DNA from: Eledone cirrhosa
Taxonomy: Eukaryota
Assembly: GCA_964016885.1 (NCBI GenBank)
Contig: OZ024742.1
Location: 247,194,001-247,258,000 of the forward strand
Reading direction: 5' to 3'
DNA length: 64,000 bases
The notes under the pieces were generated by a model. That model was not told the DNA's origin and did no database searches. It saw nothing but the letters and a program-made list of their open reading frames with translations. Position numbers and translations under genes: made by a program. Below, one piece after another: positions 19,597-30,380 of the stretch (its first letter is position 1; the number at the start of each line of letters is the position of its first letter).

Positions 19597-20110
19597 ATGA
19601 TTTTCAGCAAACACGCGGAGTACTTAGCTTTGATAAGCACCAAAAAGTGTGAAACAGAGCTCTGTCATCTTTATCTCCCTTGTTTGCTGAAAATTAAAGT
19701 AAGTGAGACTGTCACTATTCTAAACAATAGCGTAAGTCTTCGAAATACTTTTAATTAAGCATACAGTGTACTGCAAAATACACTATATATACGTTCATAT
19801 ATATATCGCTATTTCAGAGCACCAATTTCTGCTTGACCGGCAACCGCTCTGTATAATCAGTTCCTGATTATTACTAGAATTCTATAAGAATCAAACATTC
19901 ATGATTTTCAGCAAACAGTTGGAGTACTTAGCTTCGATAAGCAACAAAAAGTGCGAAACGGAGCTCTGTCTGCTTTATCTCCCCTGTTTGCTGAAAATTA
20001 AAGTAAGTGAGACTGTCACTACTCTAAAACAATAGCGTAAGGTCTTCGAAATGCTTTTAATTAAGCATACAGTGTATTGCAAAATGCACTATATATACAT
20101 TCACATATAT
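19597..20110 (+). mobile_element. Tandem 304-nt HHR-bearing unit, family E; HHRs at 19626-19670 and 19930-19974
   Basis: ATGATTTTCAGCAAACA at 19597 and 19901; AGCT-TTGATAA-GCAC-CAAAAA-GTGT-GAAA-CAGAGCTCTG-TC-ATCT. Confidence 0.75.
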
Positions 20111-20269
20111 ATATACATACTTTTACCAGTTGAGATGTATAAAGTAATTACAATACCAGATATATGTTTCAAGTAACTCTTTAGAAAATGTGTCTGTTTC
20201 AATAGCTAAAATGGTTTTAGATAAAGTATAAAATGAAACTTACCACAAATATCGCTGCGTTTCCACCGT

Positions 20270-20790
20270 GGACTCTTTCAGCCTCCACCCGCTTTCCTGT
20301 TTCCACGCCATGCTGCCCTCAACGACTTCATTAAGAATGGCTTGGACGCTGCAGGCTTCCCTTCCCAGCTCGAGCCGGTGGGGCTGGATCAAGGGGACGG
20401 CAAAAGACTAGACGGAATGACCATTTCCCGTTCCGTGGTGGCAAACCTCTCATGTGGGATGCCACTTGCACCGACACTTTCTGCAACCGCAACCTGGTGC
20501 AGTCTGCGACTGACCCTACACTAAGGGCTGAGGGGGCCAAACTCCTCAAATATCCGTCACTCTCCGACAAGTTTGCGGTCGTACCCCTGGCAGTGGAGAC
20601 TTCTGGTGTCCTCGGCCCCAGGGCTACCTCATTACTTACCACCATAGGCGCTGAGCTGGCCAGCCGCAGGTGTGAGCCCCGCGAGTTGGGGTGACTTTTC
20701 CAGCAGGTCTCCCTTGCCGTCCTTCGGGGAAACGCCATCTCCATTCTGTCTGCGTACCGCTGGAGTTGTTGTAGAAGAAACATGAAGACA
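20270..20790 (+). pseudogene. CRE-clade non-LTR retrotransposon C-terminus (restriction-like endonuclease)
   Basis: RHAALNDFI..LEPVGLDQGDGKRLDG..WDATCTDT..K..KY..VPLAVETSGVLG..SLAVLRGNA. Confidence 0.85.
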
Positions 20791-20849
20791 ACAACTGGAA
20801 AGTTTGATTTTCTACTTTATATATCTACATATATATATATATAGAGAGA

Positions 20850-21377
20850 GATAAATGGAAAAGAATAAAAGAAATTTCATTTCCCACTCTTAGTACGGCT
20901 GATACCTAAATATAAGTATGTATACGTACATACATATATGAGTACAGACGCACAGTAGTATGTATATATATACCTACATGCACACATATATATATGCACG
21001 TATGGGTTTACTGAACATTTATTATAATGTTCGGTTTGTTTGTAAACAAACAGCCCGAATTACGCCGTACAGTGCTTGGCAACCATCGTCTACCTTTTGT
21101 TCAACACTGACACAGGAACGATGTTTAGGTATCAGCCGTACTAAGAGTGAGAAATGAAATTTTGTTTCATTCTTTTCCATTCATCGTTTTCGGTATTCCC
21201 GGACGACTAACTCACCCGATATGCAAATTAGGCTGCTCAGCCGTTAATATGCATAAGGAAAGTATATACTTTCAGACGTTCAATCATCTGACAGAAAGGT
21301 ATACGATGCTGACGATAGCTAATAATCTTGAAACTAGTACATCGTTCCTGTGTTAGTGTTGAACAAAAGGGCGACGA
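20850..21377. mobile_element. Family A repeat, inverted plus direct; HHR at 21303-21345(+)
   Basis: ACGATG-CTGACGA-TAGC-TAATAA-TCTT-GAAA-CTAG-TA-CATCGT. Confidence 0.8.
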
Positions 21378-21734
21378 TATATATATATATATATATATAT
21401 ATATATATATATATATATATATATATATATATATATATATAAAATATTAAAATAAACTGTATTCCGTTTATCTTTCACCGAAAGTGATATTTCATTGCAT
21501 CTCTTCTTTCCATGATATCCGGATTGGACACTACCGTAAACTCTTGGTAGATTTATCTACATATATATATATATATATATATATACACGATAGTTTCAGA
21601 AGATCCCGTTATGGGTGAAAGCAGCGATTCTTTGCTTAATCTTTAATCTGTTATTTTAATAAATATATAAATAAATAAATAAATATATATATATATATAT
21701 ATATATATATACACACACATACATATATATATAC

Positions 21735-26725: not shown

Positions 26726-27154
26726 AATAAACGATACATATATATATATATATAATTATTTCTACTCTAGGCACAAGGCCAGCAATTACCCAGTGCATTA
26801 CTGGTACTTTATTTTATCGACCCCGTAAGGATGAAAGGCAAAGTCAACCTCGGCGGGATTTGAACTCAGATCGTAATTATGCTGGAAAGCATGGCGTCAG
26901 ACCCTCTACCGATACTGCCAATCCACCTCATATATACATATAGATACATACACATATAAATATGCATATATATATATAATATATATATATATATATACAT
27001 ATACATACATACACATATAAATATACATATATATATATAATATATATATACATATATACATACACATATGAATATACATATATATACATTTACATTTAAA
27101 TATACATATACATACACACACACACGCACACACACACATATATATATATATATA

Positions 27155-27430
27155 TACAAATACATTAATATCAACTGCAAGTGATCATAAATTGATAAAG
27201 ACGTCCCAAAATGGCAAGCAAAGTGCGGTCTCCACTCTCGCAATGCACTTCTGAGTGACTGGTGGGAGTGGAAGAGTATCATCCACCACGAGCTGCTCTC
27301 ACCAAACATTAGTATAACCTATAACGCCAAATGGCAACAACTTAACAGATGAGTGGCGAATATTGCACAGATCTATCACGCTATTGTTCAGTTTGGTTTC
27401 TTTATGACAACGCTCGGCCGTAAACGTCTC
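27155..27430 (+). pseudogene. Mariner transposase fragment
   Basis: AKCGLHSRNALLSDWWEWKSIIHHELL...QQL...YDNARP. Confidence 0.75.
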
Positions 27431-28559
27431 TCCATCATCAGTCTAACTTGAGTTATCTCCCTTAACGACGTCATTGCGCAAAATCCAGTCAGCTCCTATA
27501 CACTTCCGTTCTCAGCACAATATCACTCGCGTTGAAAATCCGCTAGGTTTAAGCCTCCTCCCCTCCAGTATGGTTTGATAATTTGTTGAGGAACCCTCTC
27601 TCTCCCTCTCTCTCCCTCTCTTTCTCTCTCTCTCTCTCTCTCTCTCTCTCTCTCTCTCTCTCTCTCTATATATATATATATATATATATATATATATATA
27701 TATATATATATATATATATATATAGAAAGATTTGAATGGATACAGTTTAGTTGAAAGGAATTTATTGACACGTGTTTCTATAACAGTTACATAACCGGAA
27801 AACAGCTGCTATCTACAAAGTTTTAGTTATGCAGACATTCAATATTTCAATGTTATTATTTACTGTAATTTCATCAGAATAATATTACTGAGGACCTATT
27901 TGGTTTTTATAGAGAATATTAGGAGGGAGGGGTGAAGTTGTTAGAAGAATAGTTGAGGGAGTGGTTTTTTGATAGCAGTGAGCATTTTTGGTGGCAGTGA
28001 GTAATTAGATTCCCATCTGTTGTTTTGACATTTTTATAGAATATATTATTGGTTATTTTTCTAAATCTATAGAAGGATTAGAGATAGTAAAGATATGCGT
28101 GGTTGGTTTTGTGTTTGCACTTAATTAACATTCAGACTTAAATTTTTCTTTCAAGTGTACGTATCCTTTCACCCACGCATTCACACACAAATATATTTGC
28201 ACACCTCTACAAAATACATATACTCACATTCACATATTCATACTTACATACATATACACATGCATACATATATATATACACACATGTATTCATGTACATA
28301 CATACGCGTTCATGTGTATACATTTTCATACTCAACTTATCTTTATATACACACGTATAGACACACACATATATACATACATACTCTAGTCTATGTGTAC
28401 ACATATACATATACATACACATCTATATATATATATATATATATATATATATATATATATATATATATATATATATATATATATATATATATATATATAT
28501 ATATATACATATATATATATATATATATATATATATAAGCACTTTAATACATGAATACA

Positions 28560-29035
28560 CTTACATCTAACTATACACATCAAACATATATATATATTTA
28601 CTTATTTATATACATTTTTAAATATATATACATACTTATGGACGTTTTTAGACACATTCATTATCGCATATTTGCACTTATTCTCATCAGCATATCTTTC
28701 CATTATTAGTGTGGTAATTTAAGGTTATTAATATATGTTGAGAAGAGATTGTTTTTATATTTTTCTAACTAGATTGAGGTTTATATAGTTGGTGGGATGT
28801 CCCTCTTTTATGTAATATTCGGCTTGTAGTGGGAAAAAAGGGTTTTAGTTCTGTTACGGCAGAATAATGTTCGTTCAATTCTGTTATTCAGCAGTTTCTT
28901 CTTGTGTGTGATTATGTAATAAATCTCAAGATTACACAATTTGCAGAAATTTTGGCTCCTGGAAAAGCTTTGGGTTTTAGCTAATTTCTCCCATTAAAAT
29001 GGGAGAAATTAGCTAAAACCCAAAGCTTTTTTACT
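28560..29035 (-). mobile_element. Penelope-like GIY-YIG C-terminus plus 3' UTR, with a 5' fold-back at 28965-29030
   Basis: WEKLAKTQSFSRSQNFCKLCNLEIYYII...LLNNRIE...CRN. Confidence 0.7.
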
Positions 29036-29509
29036 ACATAATACGTTATTAACATGAAAGTTTAAACTTCCATTCATCTTGTCTGCCACCCGGCGTCTTG
29101 TACAAGATGTGTGTGTGTGTGAGTGTGTGCCCACTTAATGTACCATACGCACATTTTCAAGATTCTTTTCTCATGGATAAATATTCTTGAGAGAAAAACA
29201 CAAAGAATCATATTAGATGTAATAAAGGACCTGCATATATATATATATATATATATATATATATATATATATATATATATATATATAATATATATATATA
29301 TATATATATATATATATATATATATATATATATATATATATATATATATATATATATATATATATATATATTATATATATATATTATATATATATATATA
29401 TATATATATATATATATATATATATATATATATAATATATATATATATATATATATATATAATATATATATATAATATATATATATATATATATATATAT
29501 ATATATATA

Positions 29510-30380
29510 AAAACACACAGATACATGCGGACACACACATATATACATGAATGCATCCGCACCCAACTGTGAGTTAAGGGTGCCAACTTCACCGATGTTG
29601 CTCAATGAATGACTGGGACAGACCAATTCAGTTTGAACCAGACTGAACCAGTATCAGAGTTAAAAATACATTATGAAGAGAGAAGAAACATTTAGATATA
29701 ATTAGTAATAAAATGTATCATACCTAAACAGGTATGATACATTTTATTACTAATTATATCTAAATGTTTCTTCTCTCTTCATAATGTATTTTTAACTCTG
29801 ATACTGGTTCAGTCTGGTTCAAACTGAATTGGTCTGTCCCAGTCATTCATTGAGCAACATCGGTGAAGTTGGCACCCTTAACTCACAGTTGGGTGCGGAT
29901 GCATTCATGTATATATGTGTGTGTCCGCATGTATCTGTGTGTTTCTTAATATATTAATAACTCCCTCTGGTCGAGCAATCTTTGAAGTGTGGGGACAACT
30001 GGAAAGCTTCCATTACTCATACTTCTCGCCTTCTTCACTACCTCTTCTACGGCCTCGATATGAATACCCCCTCCACCTCCGTGGTATTTTCTTCGTGGTT
30101 ATAAGAGGCTTAGCTCTGTTTCTCGACTGTTATATCGCGTGACTATCTCCCCCTCCGCCTTTTGGGATTCTTTCTCACGTCGTGTAGACGCGTTCTTGAG
30201 ACTAGTAAAATGAGGTATCCTCTTGATAAGTCGGCAGACCTCGCAAGGACTCTATATCTTTGATATATTGTTTTTGTTTATGCCACGAAACTACGTAGTC
30301 GAGGAATCTAGGAACAGTTTAGGTATGATACATTTTATTACTAATTATATCTAAATGTTTCTTCTCTCTTCATAATGTAT
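29510..30380 (+). mobile_element. Non-coding HHR element, family H: 591-nt unit with terminal direct repeat and 5' fold-back
   Basis: AGGTATGATACATTTTATTAC at 29730 and 30321; 29510-29725 is the inverse of 29730-29945; (TA)n on both sides. Confidence 0.8.
30218..30305 (+). ncRNA. Hammerhead family H, U3-A8 core, long stem II
   Basis: TCCTC-TTGATAA-GTCGGCA...TGCCAC-GAAA-CTACGTAG-TC-GAGGA. Confidence 0.8.

What the first reader, a model, noticed from the sequence alone, without database searches (positions are those of the whole stretch)
19626..30305. Two independent families share a compensatory U3-A8 core (UUGAUAA)
Seen: 19630-19636 and 30223-30229 both read TTGATAA where CTGANGA is expected, inside otherwise well-formed but unrelated HHRs with GUC cleavage triplets. 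The second family E copy reads TCGATAA. Known: C3-G8 is a tertiary Watson-Crick pair, and U3-A8 is a tolerated natural covariant. Inference: the double change indicates selection for catalysis rather than decay, and CUGANGA-only searches would miss these families.
Basis: partly seen in the sequence, partly recalled or inferred. Interest (0 to 1): 0.75.

Follow-up and report, generated by a model that had tools for sequence, protein, structure and literature searches.

The report
Variant-core hammerhead ribozymes in retrozyme repeats
Both sites are hammerhead self-cutting-RNA motifs carried by two abundant, protein-free repeat families of a large animal-type genome, and in both families the swapped core base pair (U3-A8 for C3-G8) is the family norm, which likely keeps the ribozyme working; this swap is already published, so these are new examples of a known kind.

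Summary
TTGATAA stands at 19630-19636 and 30223-30229, each inside a type I hammerhead frame with a GUC site, and the second family E copy reads TCGATAA at 19934-19940.

U3-A8 is the consensus in both families, not a change in single copies:
- **Family E** is a 304-320 nt tandem or inverted repeat with over 2,400 first-look candidates. It has three subfamilies, and 48 of 52, 45 of 46 and 30 of 34 copies carry U3-A8.
- In 100 listed copies chosen without regard to the core box, none reads CTGATGA.
- **The 593-nt family** reads TTGATAA in all 57 extracted instances.

Between the family E subfamilies, seven helix positions change on both sides while the core stays fixed. A sister 310-nt family with a homologous backbone carries a canonical C3-G8 hammerhead at the same unit position. 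This supports a maintained, compensated core.

Cleavage and expression were not shown. No RNA run was listed, and copy 5' ends do not mark the cleavage site. The two families share nothing outside the core, but separate origins of U3-A8 are unproven.

Natural U3-A8 hammerheads were reported in 2011, and in Penelope-like elements in 2014. This is a new member of a known kind, of modest interest.

The parts
19597..19900 (+). Family E (subfamily E1) repeat unit 1, 304 nt, no ORF
   Evidence: It is 91.5% identical to the next unit. Genome copies align from 19597 onward.
19600..19694 (+). Hammerhead domain of unit 1: a long closing stem, an internal loop and a type I hammerhead
   Evidence: Inverted repeat 19600-19613 with 19681-19694. 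Fold energies. HH9 match at 19613-19688, 19.0 bits.
19630..19636 (+). Core box U3-U4-G5-A6-U7-A8-A9 (TTGATAA)
   Evidence: This is the family consensus.
19651..19666 (+). G12-A13-A14, palindromic helix III (ACAGAGCTCTGT) and C17. Cleavage is predicted between 19666 and 19667.
   Evidence: Read from the sequence. Pair table.
19901..20119 (+). Family E unit 2, ending at the family's usual 3' end. Its core box at 19934-19940 reads TCGATAA, so U4 is lost.
29730..30380 (+). Long arm of the 593-nt family ('family 2'), 1.1 units, ending at a (TA)n run
29511..29729 (-). Short inverted arm of family 2. It meets the long arm head to head at 29729/29730 and starts from a (TA)n run.
30218..30305 (+). Family 2 hammerhead motif. 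Helix I is 30218-30222 with 30301-30305. The core box TTGATAA is 30223-30229. Helix II is 30230-30286, GAA is 30287-30289, and the palindromic helix III ACTACGTAGT is 30290-30299. C17 is 30300.
   Evidence: All 57 extracted instances keep TTGATAA.
18580..19581 (-). 5'-truncated Penelope-like element fragment (GIY-YIG endonuclease ORF 19145-19603 plus 3' region). It lies back to back with family E and ends at a (TA)n run, 18363-18579.
   Evidence: GIY-YIG at 1.4e-5. It is 78-79% identical to the L039 and L053 copies. Sequence.

Best explanation
Both sites are type I hammerhead ribozyme motifs whose C3-G8 core pair is replaced by U3-A8 as the family norm, and this compensated core is likely kept by selection on the repeats' active source copies.

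The motifs sit in two non-coding, retrozyme-like repeat families of a 3.0-Gb genome rich in Penelope-like elements. Family E has a unit of 304-320 nt, and the second family has a unit of 593 nt.

**Shown here:**
- the motif anatomy;
- U3-A8 as the consensus;
- compensatory changes in all three helices among the family E subfamilies;
- a sister family with a canonical core at the same unit position;
- insertion features typical of retrotransposed copies: a fixed 3' end at a TA-rich stretch, varied 5' ends, copies longer than one unit, and back-to-back arms.

**Inferred:**
- Unit-length or multimeric transcripts would cut themselves after C17. The likely active form is a dimer, because helix III is palindromic.
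- The cut RNAs would be ligated to circles.
- They would be copied back into DNA by Penelope-type enzymes.
For: **Consensus of the core**
- Subfamily E1: 48 of 52 copies read TTGATAA. E2: 45 of 46. E3: 24 of 34 read TTGATAA and 6 more read TTGACAA.
- The pattern AGCT-N7-GCACCAAAAAGTGCGAAAC gave 201 genome hits. Of the first 100 listed, 88 read TTGATAA, none CTGATGA, 2 TTGATGA and 1 CTGATAA.
- A second pattern gave 153 hits. Of the first 100 listed, 96 read TTGATAA.
- Family 2: all 57 extracted instances read TTGATAA. Some of the loci overlap, and one search lists 40 full-length places.

**Covariation**
- Between the E1, E2 and E3 consensuses both sides change at I.1, I.2, II.2, II.3, II.4, III.4 and III.5.
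- All core letters, the 3-8 pair and C17 stay fixed (47, 44 and 30 copies parsed for E1, E2 and E3).
- III.5 cannot pair in a monomer hairpin, so its covariation points to the dimer form.

**Sister family**
- A 310-nt tandem family with CTGATGA shares the unit backbone with family E. Identity is 70.9% over 189 nt, E 1.4e-22.
- Its hammerhead sits at the same unit position.

**Resemblance to a curated family**
- E1 and E2 give Rfam Hammerhead_HH9 as their only ribozyme match, with the same loop 2 (CAAAAA). Scores are 26.5 and 29.5 bits.

**Chance**
- Shuffles gave 1.6 descriptor hits per 664 kb against 25 real hits. None was as strong as site 2.

**Energetics**
- The hammerhead fold lies 1.8-4.1 kcal/mol above the minimum free energy, before any tertiary contacts are counted.

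**Literature**
- U3-A8 covaries in natural hammerheads, and such variants cleave in vitro (PMC3088659, passages read).
- About 1,300 U3-A8 minimal hammerheads were found in Schistosoma Penelope-like elements (PMC4209133, passages read).
- Type I hammerheads in ~300-bp tandem repeats of animals are retrozymes expressed as circular RNAs (PMC7229834, passages read).
Against: - No cleavage or expression evidence exists for these sequences.
- The predicted minimum-energy fold of family E is a rod that pairs U3-U4-G5 with the 5' strand of helix III, not the hammerhead fold.
- The family 2 fold is no more stable than shuffles (z -0.6). Family 2 has no Rfam match at all. Its copies are too alike (95-100%) to show covariation.
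- The 5' ends of 50 E1 insertions spread over the whole unit. Only 7 lie 3-15 nt past the cleavage site, and other positions cluster as much. The copies therefore carry no footprint of self-cleavage.
- The window copies are themselves damaged.
- Family 2 lies within 1.5 kb of the Penelope endonuclease in only 1 of 30 loci examined. The link to Penelope enzymes rests on insertion style and on the literature.
Confidence: 0.8

Rival explanations
1. One origin rather than two. U3-A8 arose once in an ancestral hammerhead of this retroelement lineage. Family E, family 2 and a third candidate family inherited it, and everything outside the core has since diverged beyond recognition.
For: - All the U3-A8 families share one genome and one insertion style: 3' ends at TA runs and back-to-back arms.
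- They share G10.1-C11.1, C15.2-G16.2 and a palindromic helix III. Families E and 2 both cut after GUC.
- The hammerhead region evolves fast. The sister C3-G8 family is unalignable with family E there, despite a homologous backbone.
- A third candidate U3-A8 family exists: 34 of 37 copies read TTGAAAA.
Against: - No similarity between the family E and family 2 units outside the core. The best BLAST E-value is 0.08, for 11 nt.
- Helix II differs greatly: 4 bp with a 6-nt loop in family E, against 57 nt in family 2.
- The closest identified relative of family E by backbone has C3-G8, which places a 3-8 switch inside that lineage.
Confidence: 0.4
2. Inactive relics. The motifs descend from hammerheads but no longer cleave. 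The families multiply as DNA satellites, or are copied for reasons unrelated to the ribozyme. U3-A8 is then a neutral state frozen by recent amplification.
For: - Family 2 copies are 95-100% alike, so their uniform core could simply reflect youth.
- There is no footprint of cleavage at copy 5' ends.
- The minimum-energy folds are not the hammerhead fold.
- Minimal hammerheads of Penelope-like elements cleave poorly in vitro (PMC4209133).
Against: - Three family E subfamilies keep every core letter and the 3-8 pair, while seven helix positions changed on both sides.
- Single-sided 3-8 changes are seen only in rare individual copies: 1 to 3 among the 100 listed per pattern search.
- Fixed 3' ends with varied 5' ends indicate copying through RNA, not satellite expansion alone.
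Confidence: 0.12
3. Chance resemblance. This applies mainly to site 2: a repeat that merely happens to contain TTGATAA, GAAA and GTC with pairable flanks.
For: - No Rfam match at E up to 10.
- No covariation is available for family 2.
- Helix II is unusually long and bulged.
- The fold z-score is -0.6.
Against: - No hit of equal quality occurred in 3.3 Mb of shuffled sequence, both strands.
- Helix III is a perfect 10-nt palindrome, and G10.1-C11.1 is present.
- Every 593-nt unit of the tandem arrays carries the motif.
Confidence: 0.04

Closest known systems
U3-A8 minimal hammerheads of Penelope-like elements in Schistosoma mansoni (Cervera and de la Pena 2014, PMC4209133; passages read)
   Same: - The same core covariation, U3-A8 for C3-G8, at family level in an animal genome.
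- A palindromic helix III, implying dimer action.
- A G10.1-C11.1 pair.
- Copies scattered singly, in tandem and on opposite strands close together.
   Different: - Here helix III has 3-4 pairs with a loop rather than being minimal.
- Family E has a long helix I with an internal loop, and loop 2 matches HH9.
- Family 2 could not be placed in the terminal repeat of a Penelope-like element. Only 1 of 30 endonuclease loci has it nearby.
Animal non-LTR retrozymes (Cervera and de la Pena 2020, PMC7229834; Li et al. 2026 preprint, 10.64898/2026.07.22.740005; passages and sections read)
   Same: - Type I hammerhead in every unit of short (150-450 bp), low-GC, non-coding tandem repeats.
- Co-occurrence with Penelope-like elements.
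- Family E has a 304-320 nt unit and arrays of at least 10 units.
   Different: - The passages I read describe no U3-A8 core in the published families.
- Family 2's 593-nt unit is longer than the published range.
- Circular RNA was not tested here.
Rfam Hammerhead_HH9 (RF02275)
   Same: It is the only ribozyme family matched. It has the same type I layout, a 4-bp helix II, the same loop CAAAAA, and UAC-type letters in the helix I internal loop.
   Different: Scores of 12.8-29.5 bits are far below the 52-bit cut-off. Family E has U3-A8, only 4 helix I pairs next to the core, and a repeat context rather than a conserved intron.
Natural U3-A8 hammerhead variants (Perreault et al. 2011, PMC3088659; passages read)
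   Same: The same compensatory pair. That paper states it is active in vitro, citing Przybilski and Hammann 2007, which I did not read.
   Different: Those were scattered examples. Here whole repeat families with thousands of candidate copies carry it.

Membership tests
Hammerhead ribozyme, type I | Conserved core: C3-U4-G5-A6-N7-G8-A9, G12-A13-A14, A15.1-U16.1 and H17 | tested here: met
   All core letters are present in both family consensuses, except that 3-8 is U-A, a published active covariant. Window copy 2 fails this test because U4 is C.
Hammerhead ribozyme, type I | Three helices around the core, with helix I open and helices II and III closed | tested here: met
   For family E, helices I, II and III are supported by compensatory changes at seven positions. 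For family 2 the helices can be drawn, but no covariation is available.
Hammerhead ribozyme, type I | Score at or above the curated Rfam cut-off | tested here: not met
   The best score is 29.5 bits against a cut-off of 52 for HH9. Family 2 gives no match. The genome's canonical C3-G8 tandem family is missed too.
Hammerhead ribozyme, type I | Site-specific self-cleavage after position 17 | not testable with these tools
   No RNA run was listed. Copy 5' ends give no clear footprint.
Animal non-LTR retrozyme | Short non-coding tandem repeats with one type I hammerhead per unit | tested here: met
   Family E forms tandem arrays with a period of about 320 nt, with 10 units in L012. Family 2 arrays have a 593-nt period. 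Neither unit holds an ORF with a Pfam domain.
Animal non-LTR retrozyme | Expressed as unit-length circular RNA | not testable with these tools
   No RNA holder was listed.
Hammerhead in the terminal repeat of a Penelope-like element | The motif lies in the repeats flanking an ORF with reverse transcriptase and a GIY-YIG endonuclease | tested here: not met
   - Family 2 follows a Penelope 3' end in two loci, L039/L213 and L053.
- Only 1 of 30 endonuclease loci has family 2 within 1.5 kb.
- The reverse transcriptase ORF beside it in L040 is of the LINE kind and has no GIY-YIG domain.

The most novel reading that the evidence does not exclude
U3-A8 hammerheads form a distinct, long-lived class of animal retrozyme ribozymes that coexists with C3-G8 ones in the same genome. 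The weaker core pair would tune the balance of cleavage and ligation, or the dependence on dimers, in favour of circular RNA. Switches between the two cores would then be adaptive events in a retroelement lineage rather than neutral covariation.
Probability: 0.1. Interest if true: 0.6.

Novelty: new member of a known kind. Interest (0 to 1): 0.3.

Why it matters
The finding adds two large, well-defined natural families to the short list of hammerheads with a U3-A8 core. One of them, family E, has a sister family with C3-G8 on the same repeat backbone. That pair is a natural matched set for measuring what the swap does to cleavage, ligation and dimer dependence.

It also shows that censuses of animal hammerheads and retrozymes that rely on the CUGANGA box or on Rfam cut-offs undercount. 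In this genome they undercount by thousands of candidate copies. The principle itself has been in print since 2011 and 2014.

Tried and rejected
- **RNA evidence.** No RNA holder was listed for the family 2 locus. Only contigs of unknown library kind could be laid. They show that runs labelled as two other organisms hold the family 2 region. One 187-nt contig, with 2 differences, covers the TTGATAA box. Contigs cannot show RNA ends.
- **Family 2 as a Penelope terminal repeat.** I first read the reverse transcriptase ORF beside it (L040) as Penelope-type and rejected this. Its relatives carry the LINE endonuclease domain in 5 of 120 listed hits. The ORF ends without GIY-YIG. Only 1 of 30 endonuclease loci has family 2 nearby.
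- **Self-cleavage footprint in copy 5' ends.** This was not found.
- **Shared 3' tail between the Penelope element and the repeats.** Only TA-run matches appeared.
- **Rfam HH9 search of the whole genome.** It scored only 58 of about 177,000 candidates. It returned one sub-threshold hit, an E2 copy with U3-A8, so it gives no census.
- **Strict descriptor.** Requiring 5 or more helix I pairs finds no U3-A8 motif in 600 kb, because families E and 2 fall outside its limits. The relaxed version was needed.
- **Formal covariation count.** The MAFFT alignment A2 is out of register 3' of helix III. I therefore counted pairs from the core outward by script and did not use the count of structure pairs.
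Full report
**What is at the coordinates**

The + strand reads TTGATAA at 19630-19636 and at 30223-30229. Both lie in a complete type I hammerhead frame.

At site 1 the layout is:
- helix II GCAC/GTGT with loop CAAAAA;
- GAAA;
- a palindromic helix III, ACAGAGCTCTGT;
- a GUC site with C17 at 19666;
- a helix I that continues into a long hairpin, 19600-19694.

At site 2 the layout is:
- a 5-bp helix I (TCCTC/GAGGA);
- a 57-nt bulged helix II;
- GAAA;
- a palindromic helix III, ACTACGTAGT;
- a GUC site with C17 at 30300.

A second family E unit follows 304 nt after the first and reads TCGATAA at 19934-19940.

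The heptamer by itself is not enriched: 15 occurrences against 23.8 expected. The whole motif is enriched. A descriptor that leaves positions 3 and 8 free gave 25 hits in 663,800 real bases. Five dinucleotide shuffles gave 8 hits in total, and none was as strong as site 2.

Rfam reports no hammerhead in the window at gathering score. Its only hints are sub-threshold Hammerhead_HH9 matches at the two family E copies, 19.0 and 12.8 bits against a cut-off of 52. These share the loop 2 sequence CAAAAA. Site 2 gives nothing.

**The families**

The window lies in a 3.0-Gb genome with chromosome-sized contigs.

Family E is abundant, with 2,465 first-look candidates of which 40 were scored. Its unit is 304-320 nt. 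It occurs in tandem arrays, with ten units in L012, and in opposite orientations close together.

An arbitrary 600-kb sample of the genome revealed two further subfamilies, homologous to the window's along the whole unit. After removing duplicate contexts, the core box reads as follows:
- E1: TTGATAA in 48 of 52 copies.
- E2: TTGATAA in 45 of 46 copies.
- E3: TTGATAA in 24 of 34 copies and TTGACAA in 6 more.

Two genome-wide pattern searches that leave the questioned positions free agree:
- One gave 153 hits. Of the first 100 listed, 96 read TTGATAA, 1 CTGATAA and 3 TTGATTA.
- The other gave 201 hits. Of the first 100 listed, 88 read TTGATAA, 2 TTGATGA and 1 CTGATAA. Nine carried other single changes, and none read CTGATGA.

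Family 2, at site 2, has a 593-nt unit in tandem arrays, with 104 candidates of which 40 were scored. All 57 instances extracted from 30 partly overlapping loci read TTGATAA.

**Is the core maintained or merely young?**

For family E the answer comes from comparing subfamilies. I counted pairs outward from the core in 47, 44 and 30 parsable copies of E1, E2 and E3. The subfamily consensuses differ on both sides at:
- two helix I pairs (U-A/C-G and C-G/U-A);
- three helix II pairs (C-G/U-A, A-U/U-A and C-G/U-A);
- two helix III positions (G-C/A-U, and A-U/C-G/G-C).

Every core letter, the U3-A8 pair and C17 are unchanged.

The fifth helix III position cannot pair within a monomer hairpin. It stays complementary through three different pairs, as expected if two units form one extended helix III. 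This is the dimer mode described for animal type I hammerheads (PMC4209133; PMC7229834).

The same 600-kb sample also holds a 310-nt tandem family with a canonical CTGATGA hammerhead. Its unit backbone is homologous to family E: 70.9% over 189 nt with E 1.4e-22 against E1, and 73.8% over 145 nt against E2. Its ribozyme occupies the same place in the unit. So a switch between C3-G8 and U3-A8 happened within one repeat lineage, and both states head successful families.

Copies with only one of the two changes are rare singletons. An example elsewhere in the window is the U3-G8 copy at 41995, whose relatives in the sample are C3-G8.

For family 2 no such test is possible, because its copies are 95-100% alike.

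**What argues for caution**

- No RNA run was listed.
- Predicted minimum-energy folds are not the hammerhead. For E1 the minimum is -42.9 kcal/mol against -40.0 for the hammerhead fold. For E2 the values are -38.0 and -33.9, and for family 2 they are -28.7 and -26.9.
- The family 2 fold is no better than shuffles.
- In 50 E1 insertions the 3' ends sit at unit positions 209-211 or 230-231 in 42 cases. The 5' ends spread from 16 to 294. Only 7 fall 3-15 nt after the cleavage site. This indicates copying through RNA from a fixed start in a TA-rich stretch, often for more than one unit. It gives no footprint of self-cleavage.
- The window's own copies are worn. Copy 1 has a G-U at 10.1-11.1 and a helix I mismatch, and copy 2 has lost U4.

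**Relation to Penelope-like elements**

A GIY-YIG endonuclease ORF (19145-19603, minus strand) lies back to back with family E. It is 84-88% identical to ORFs beside family 2 in two other loci. The genome holds at least 150 copies of this endonuclease, mostly at 97-99% identity, in open frames of up to 905 aa.

I first took family 2 for this element's terminal repeat and rejected that reading:
- The reverse transcriptase ORF next to it is of the LINE kind.
- Only 1 of 30 endonuclease loci has family 2 within 1.5 kb.

What the elements do share is their setting. Their 3' ends abut (TA)n runs, and they form head-to-head arms. Mobilisation by Penelope-type enzymes therefore remains an inference. 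It agrees with a 2026 preprint, and two earlier unchecked notes of this scan on the same genome read it the same way.

**Independence**

Families E and 2 share nothing detectable outside the core. The best BLAST E-value is 0.08. A third candidate U3-A8 family, at window 17718-17747, reads TTGAAAA in 34 of 37 copies.

In the arbitrary sample, canonical cores dominate. The strict descriptor gave 27 C-G among 31 hits, against 2 hits in reversed sequence. The relaxed descriptor gave 14 C-G and 3 U-A among 21 hits, against 3 reversed. Whether U3-A8 arose once or several times cannot be decided from one genome.

**What is known**

- Perreault et al. 2011 state that C3 and G8 covary to U3 and A8 in several natural hammerheads, and that such variants were already shown to be active in vitro (PMC3088659).
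- Cervera and de la Pena 2014 found the same covariation in Schistosoma Penelope-like elements. A U3-A8 descriptor retrieved about 1,300 hits (PMC4209133).
- My two literature searches for 'U3-A8' and 'C3-G8' together with 'hammerhead' returned one and two papers.
- I found no statement on U3-A8 in the retrozyme passages I read. I did not read the whole papers or their supplements.

The point that CUGANGA-only searches miss these families is correct, but it is not new. In this genome Rfam also misses the canonical sister family.

**Verdict**

These are new members of a known kind, of modest interest.

Noticed in passing
window 17718-17747 (+), within an inverted repeat at about 17640-17790: A third candidate U3-A8 minimal hammerhead: TTGAGAA in the window, helix III CCGG and a GUA site. 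Its family has 284 first-look candidates, and 34 of 37 extracted copies read TTGAAAA. Helix I is weak, with 3-4 pairs.
   Followed up: partly
window 7080-7111 (+), 47536-47585 (+), 47490-47441 (-), 47168-47114 (-), 24181-24115 (-), 41995-42039 (+): Further minimal hammerhead motifs with canonical C3-G8 cores and AUA or GUA sites, of the kind described for Penelope-like elements. The copy at 41995 reads TTGATGA (U3-G8) and looks like a single-copy decay of a C3-G8 family seen in the sample (L117).
   Followed up: partly
L065:3650-4890 and L070:8834-10000 (genome sample): A 310-nt tandem family with a canonical CTGATGA hammerhead. Its unit backbone is homologous to family E (E 1.4e-22), with the ribozyme at the same unit position. 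Rfam gives no hammerhead match for it at E up to 0.05.
   Followed up: partly
window 29729/29730; window 19581-19597: Head-to-head junctions. Two family 2 arms meet at a near-perfect palindrome with a 4-nt spacer, and each arm runs out to a (TA)n tract. A truncated Penelope-like fragment on the minus strand meets family E on the plus strand within about 15 nt.
   Followed up: partly
loci L002-L030 (family E1 insertions): The 3' ends are fixed at unit position 209-211 or 230-231 in 42 of 50 elements, inside a TA-rich stretch. The 5' ends vary, and many copies exceed one unit. This fits reverse transcription from a multimeric or circular template primed at the TA stretch.
   Followed up: partly
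window 19145-19603 (-) and 50250-51239 (+): Two Penelope-like GIY-YIG endonuclease ORF fragments, 55% identical to each other. The genome holds at least 150 near-identical endonuclease copies, with open frames up to 905 aa, which suggests a recently active element.
   Followed up: partly
window 56059-59281 (-): A GC-richer stretch with LINE-type ORF pieces: an Exo_endo_phos endonuclease, RVT_1 and a weak zf-RVT match.
   Followed up: no
window 8553-8771, 17072-17227, 52125-52294: Long perfect hairpins, probably inverted-repeat elements. They give sub-threshold matches to plant and animal microRNA families in Rfam, and none reaches a gathering score.
   Followed up: no
window 47730-47929: An assembly gap of 200 N.
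   Followed up: no
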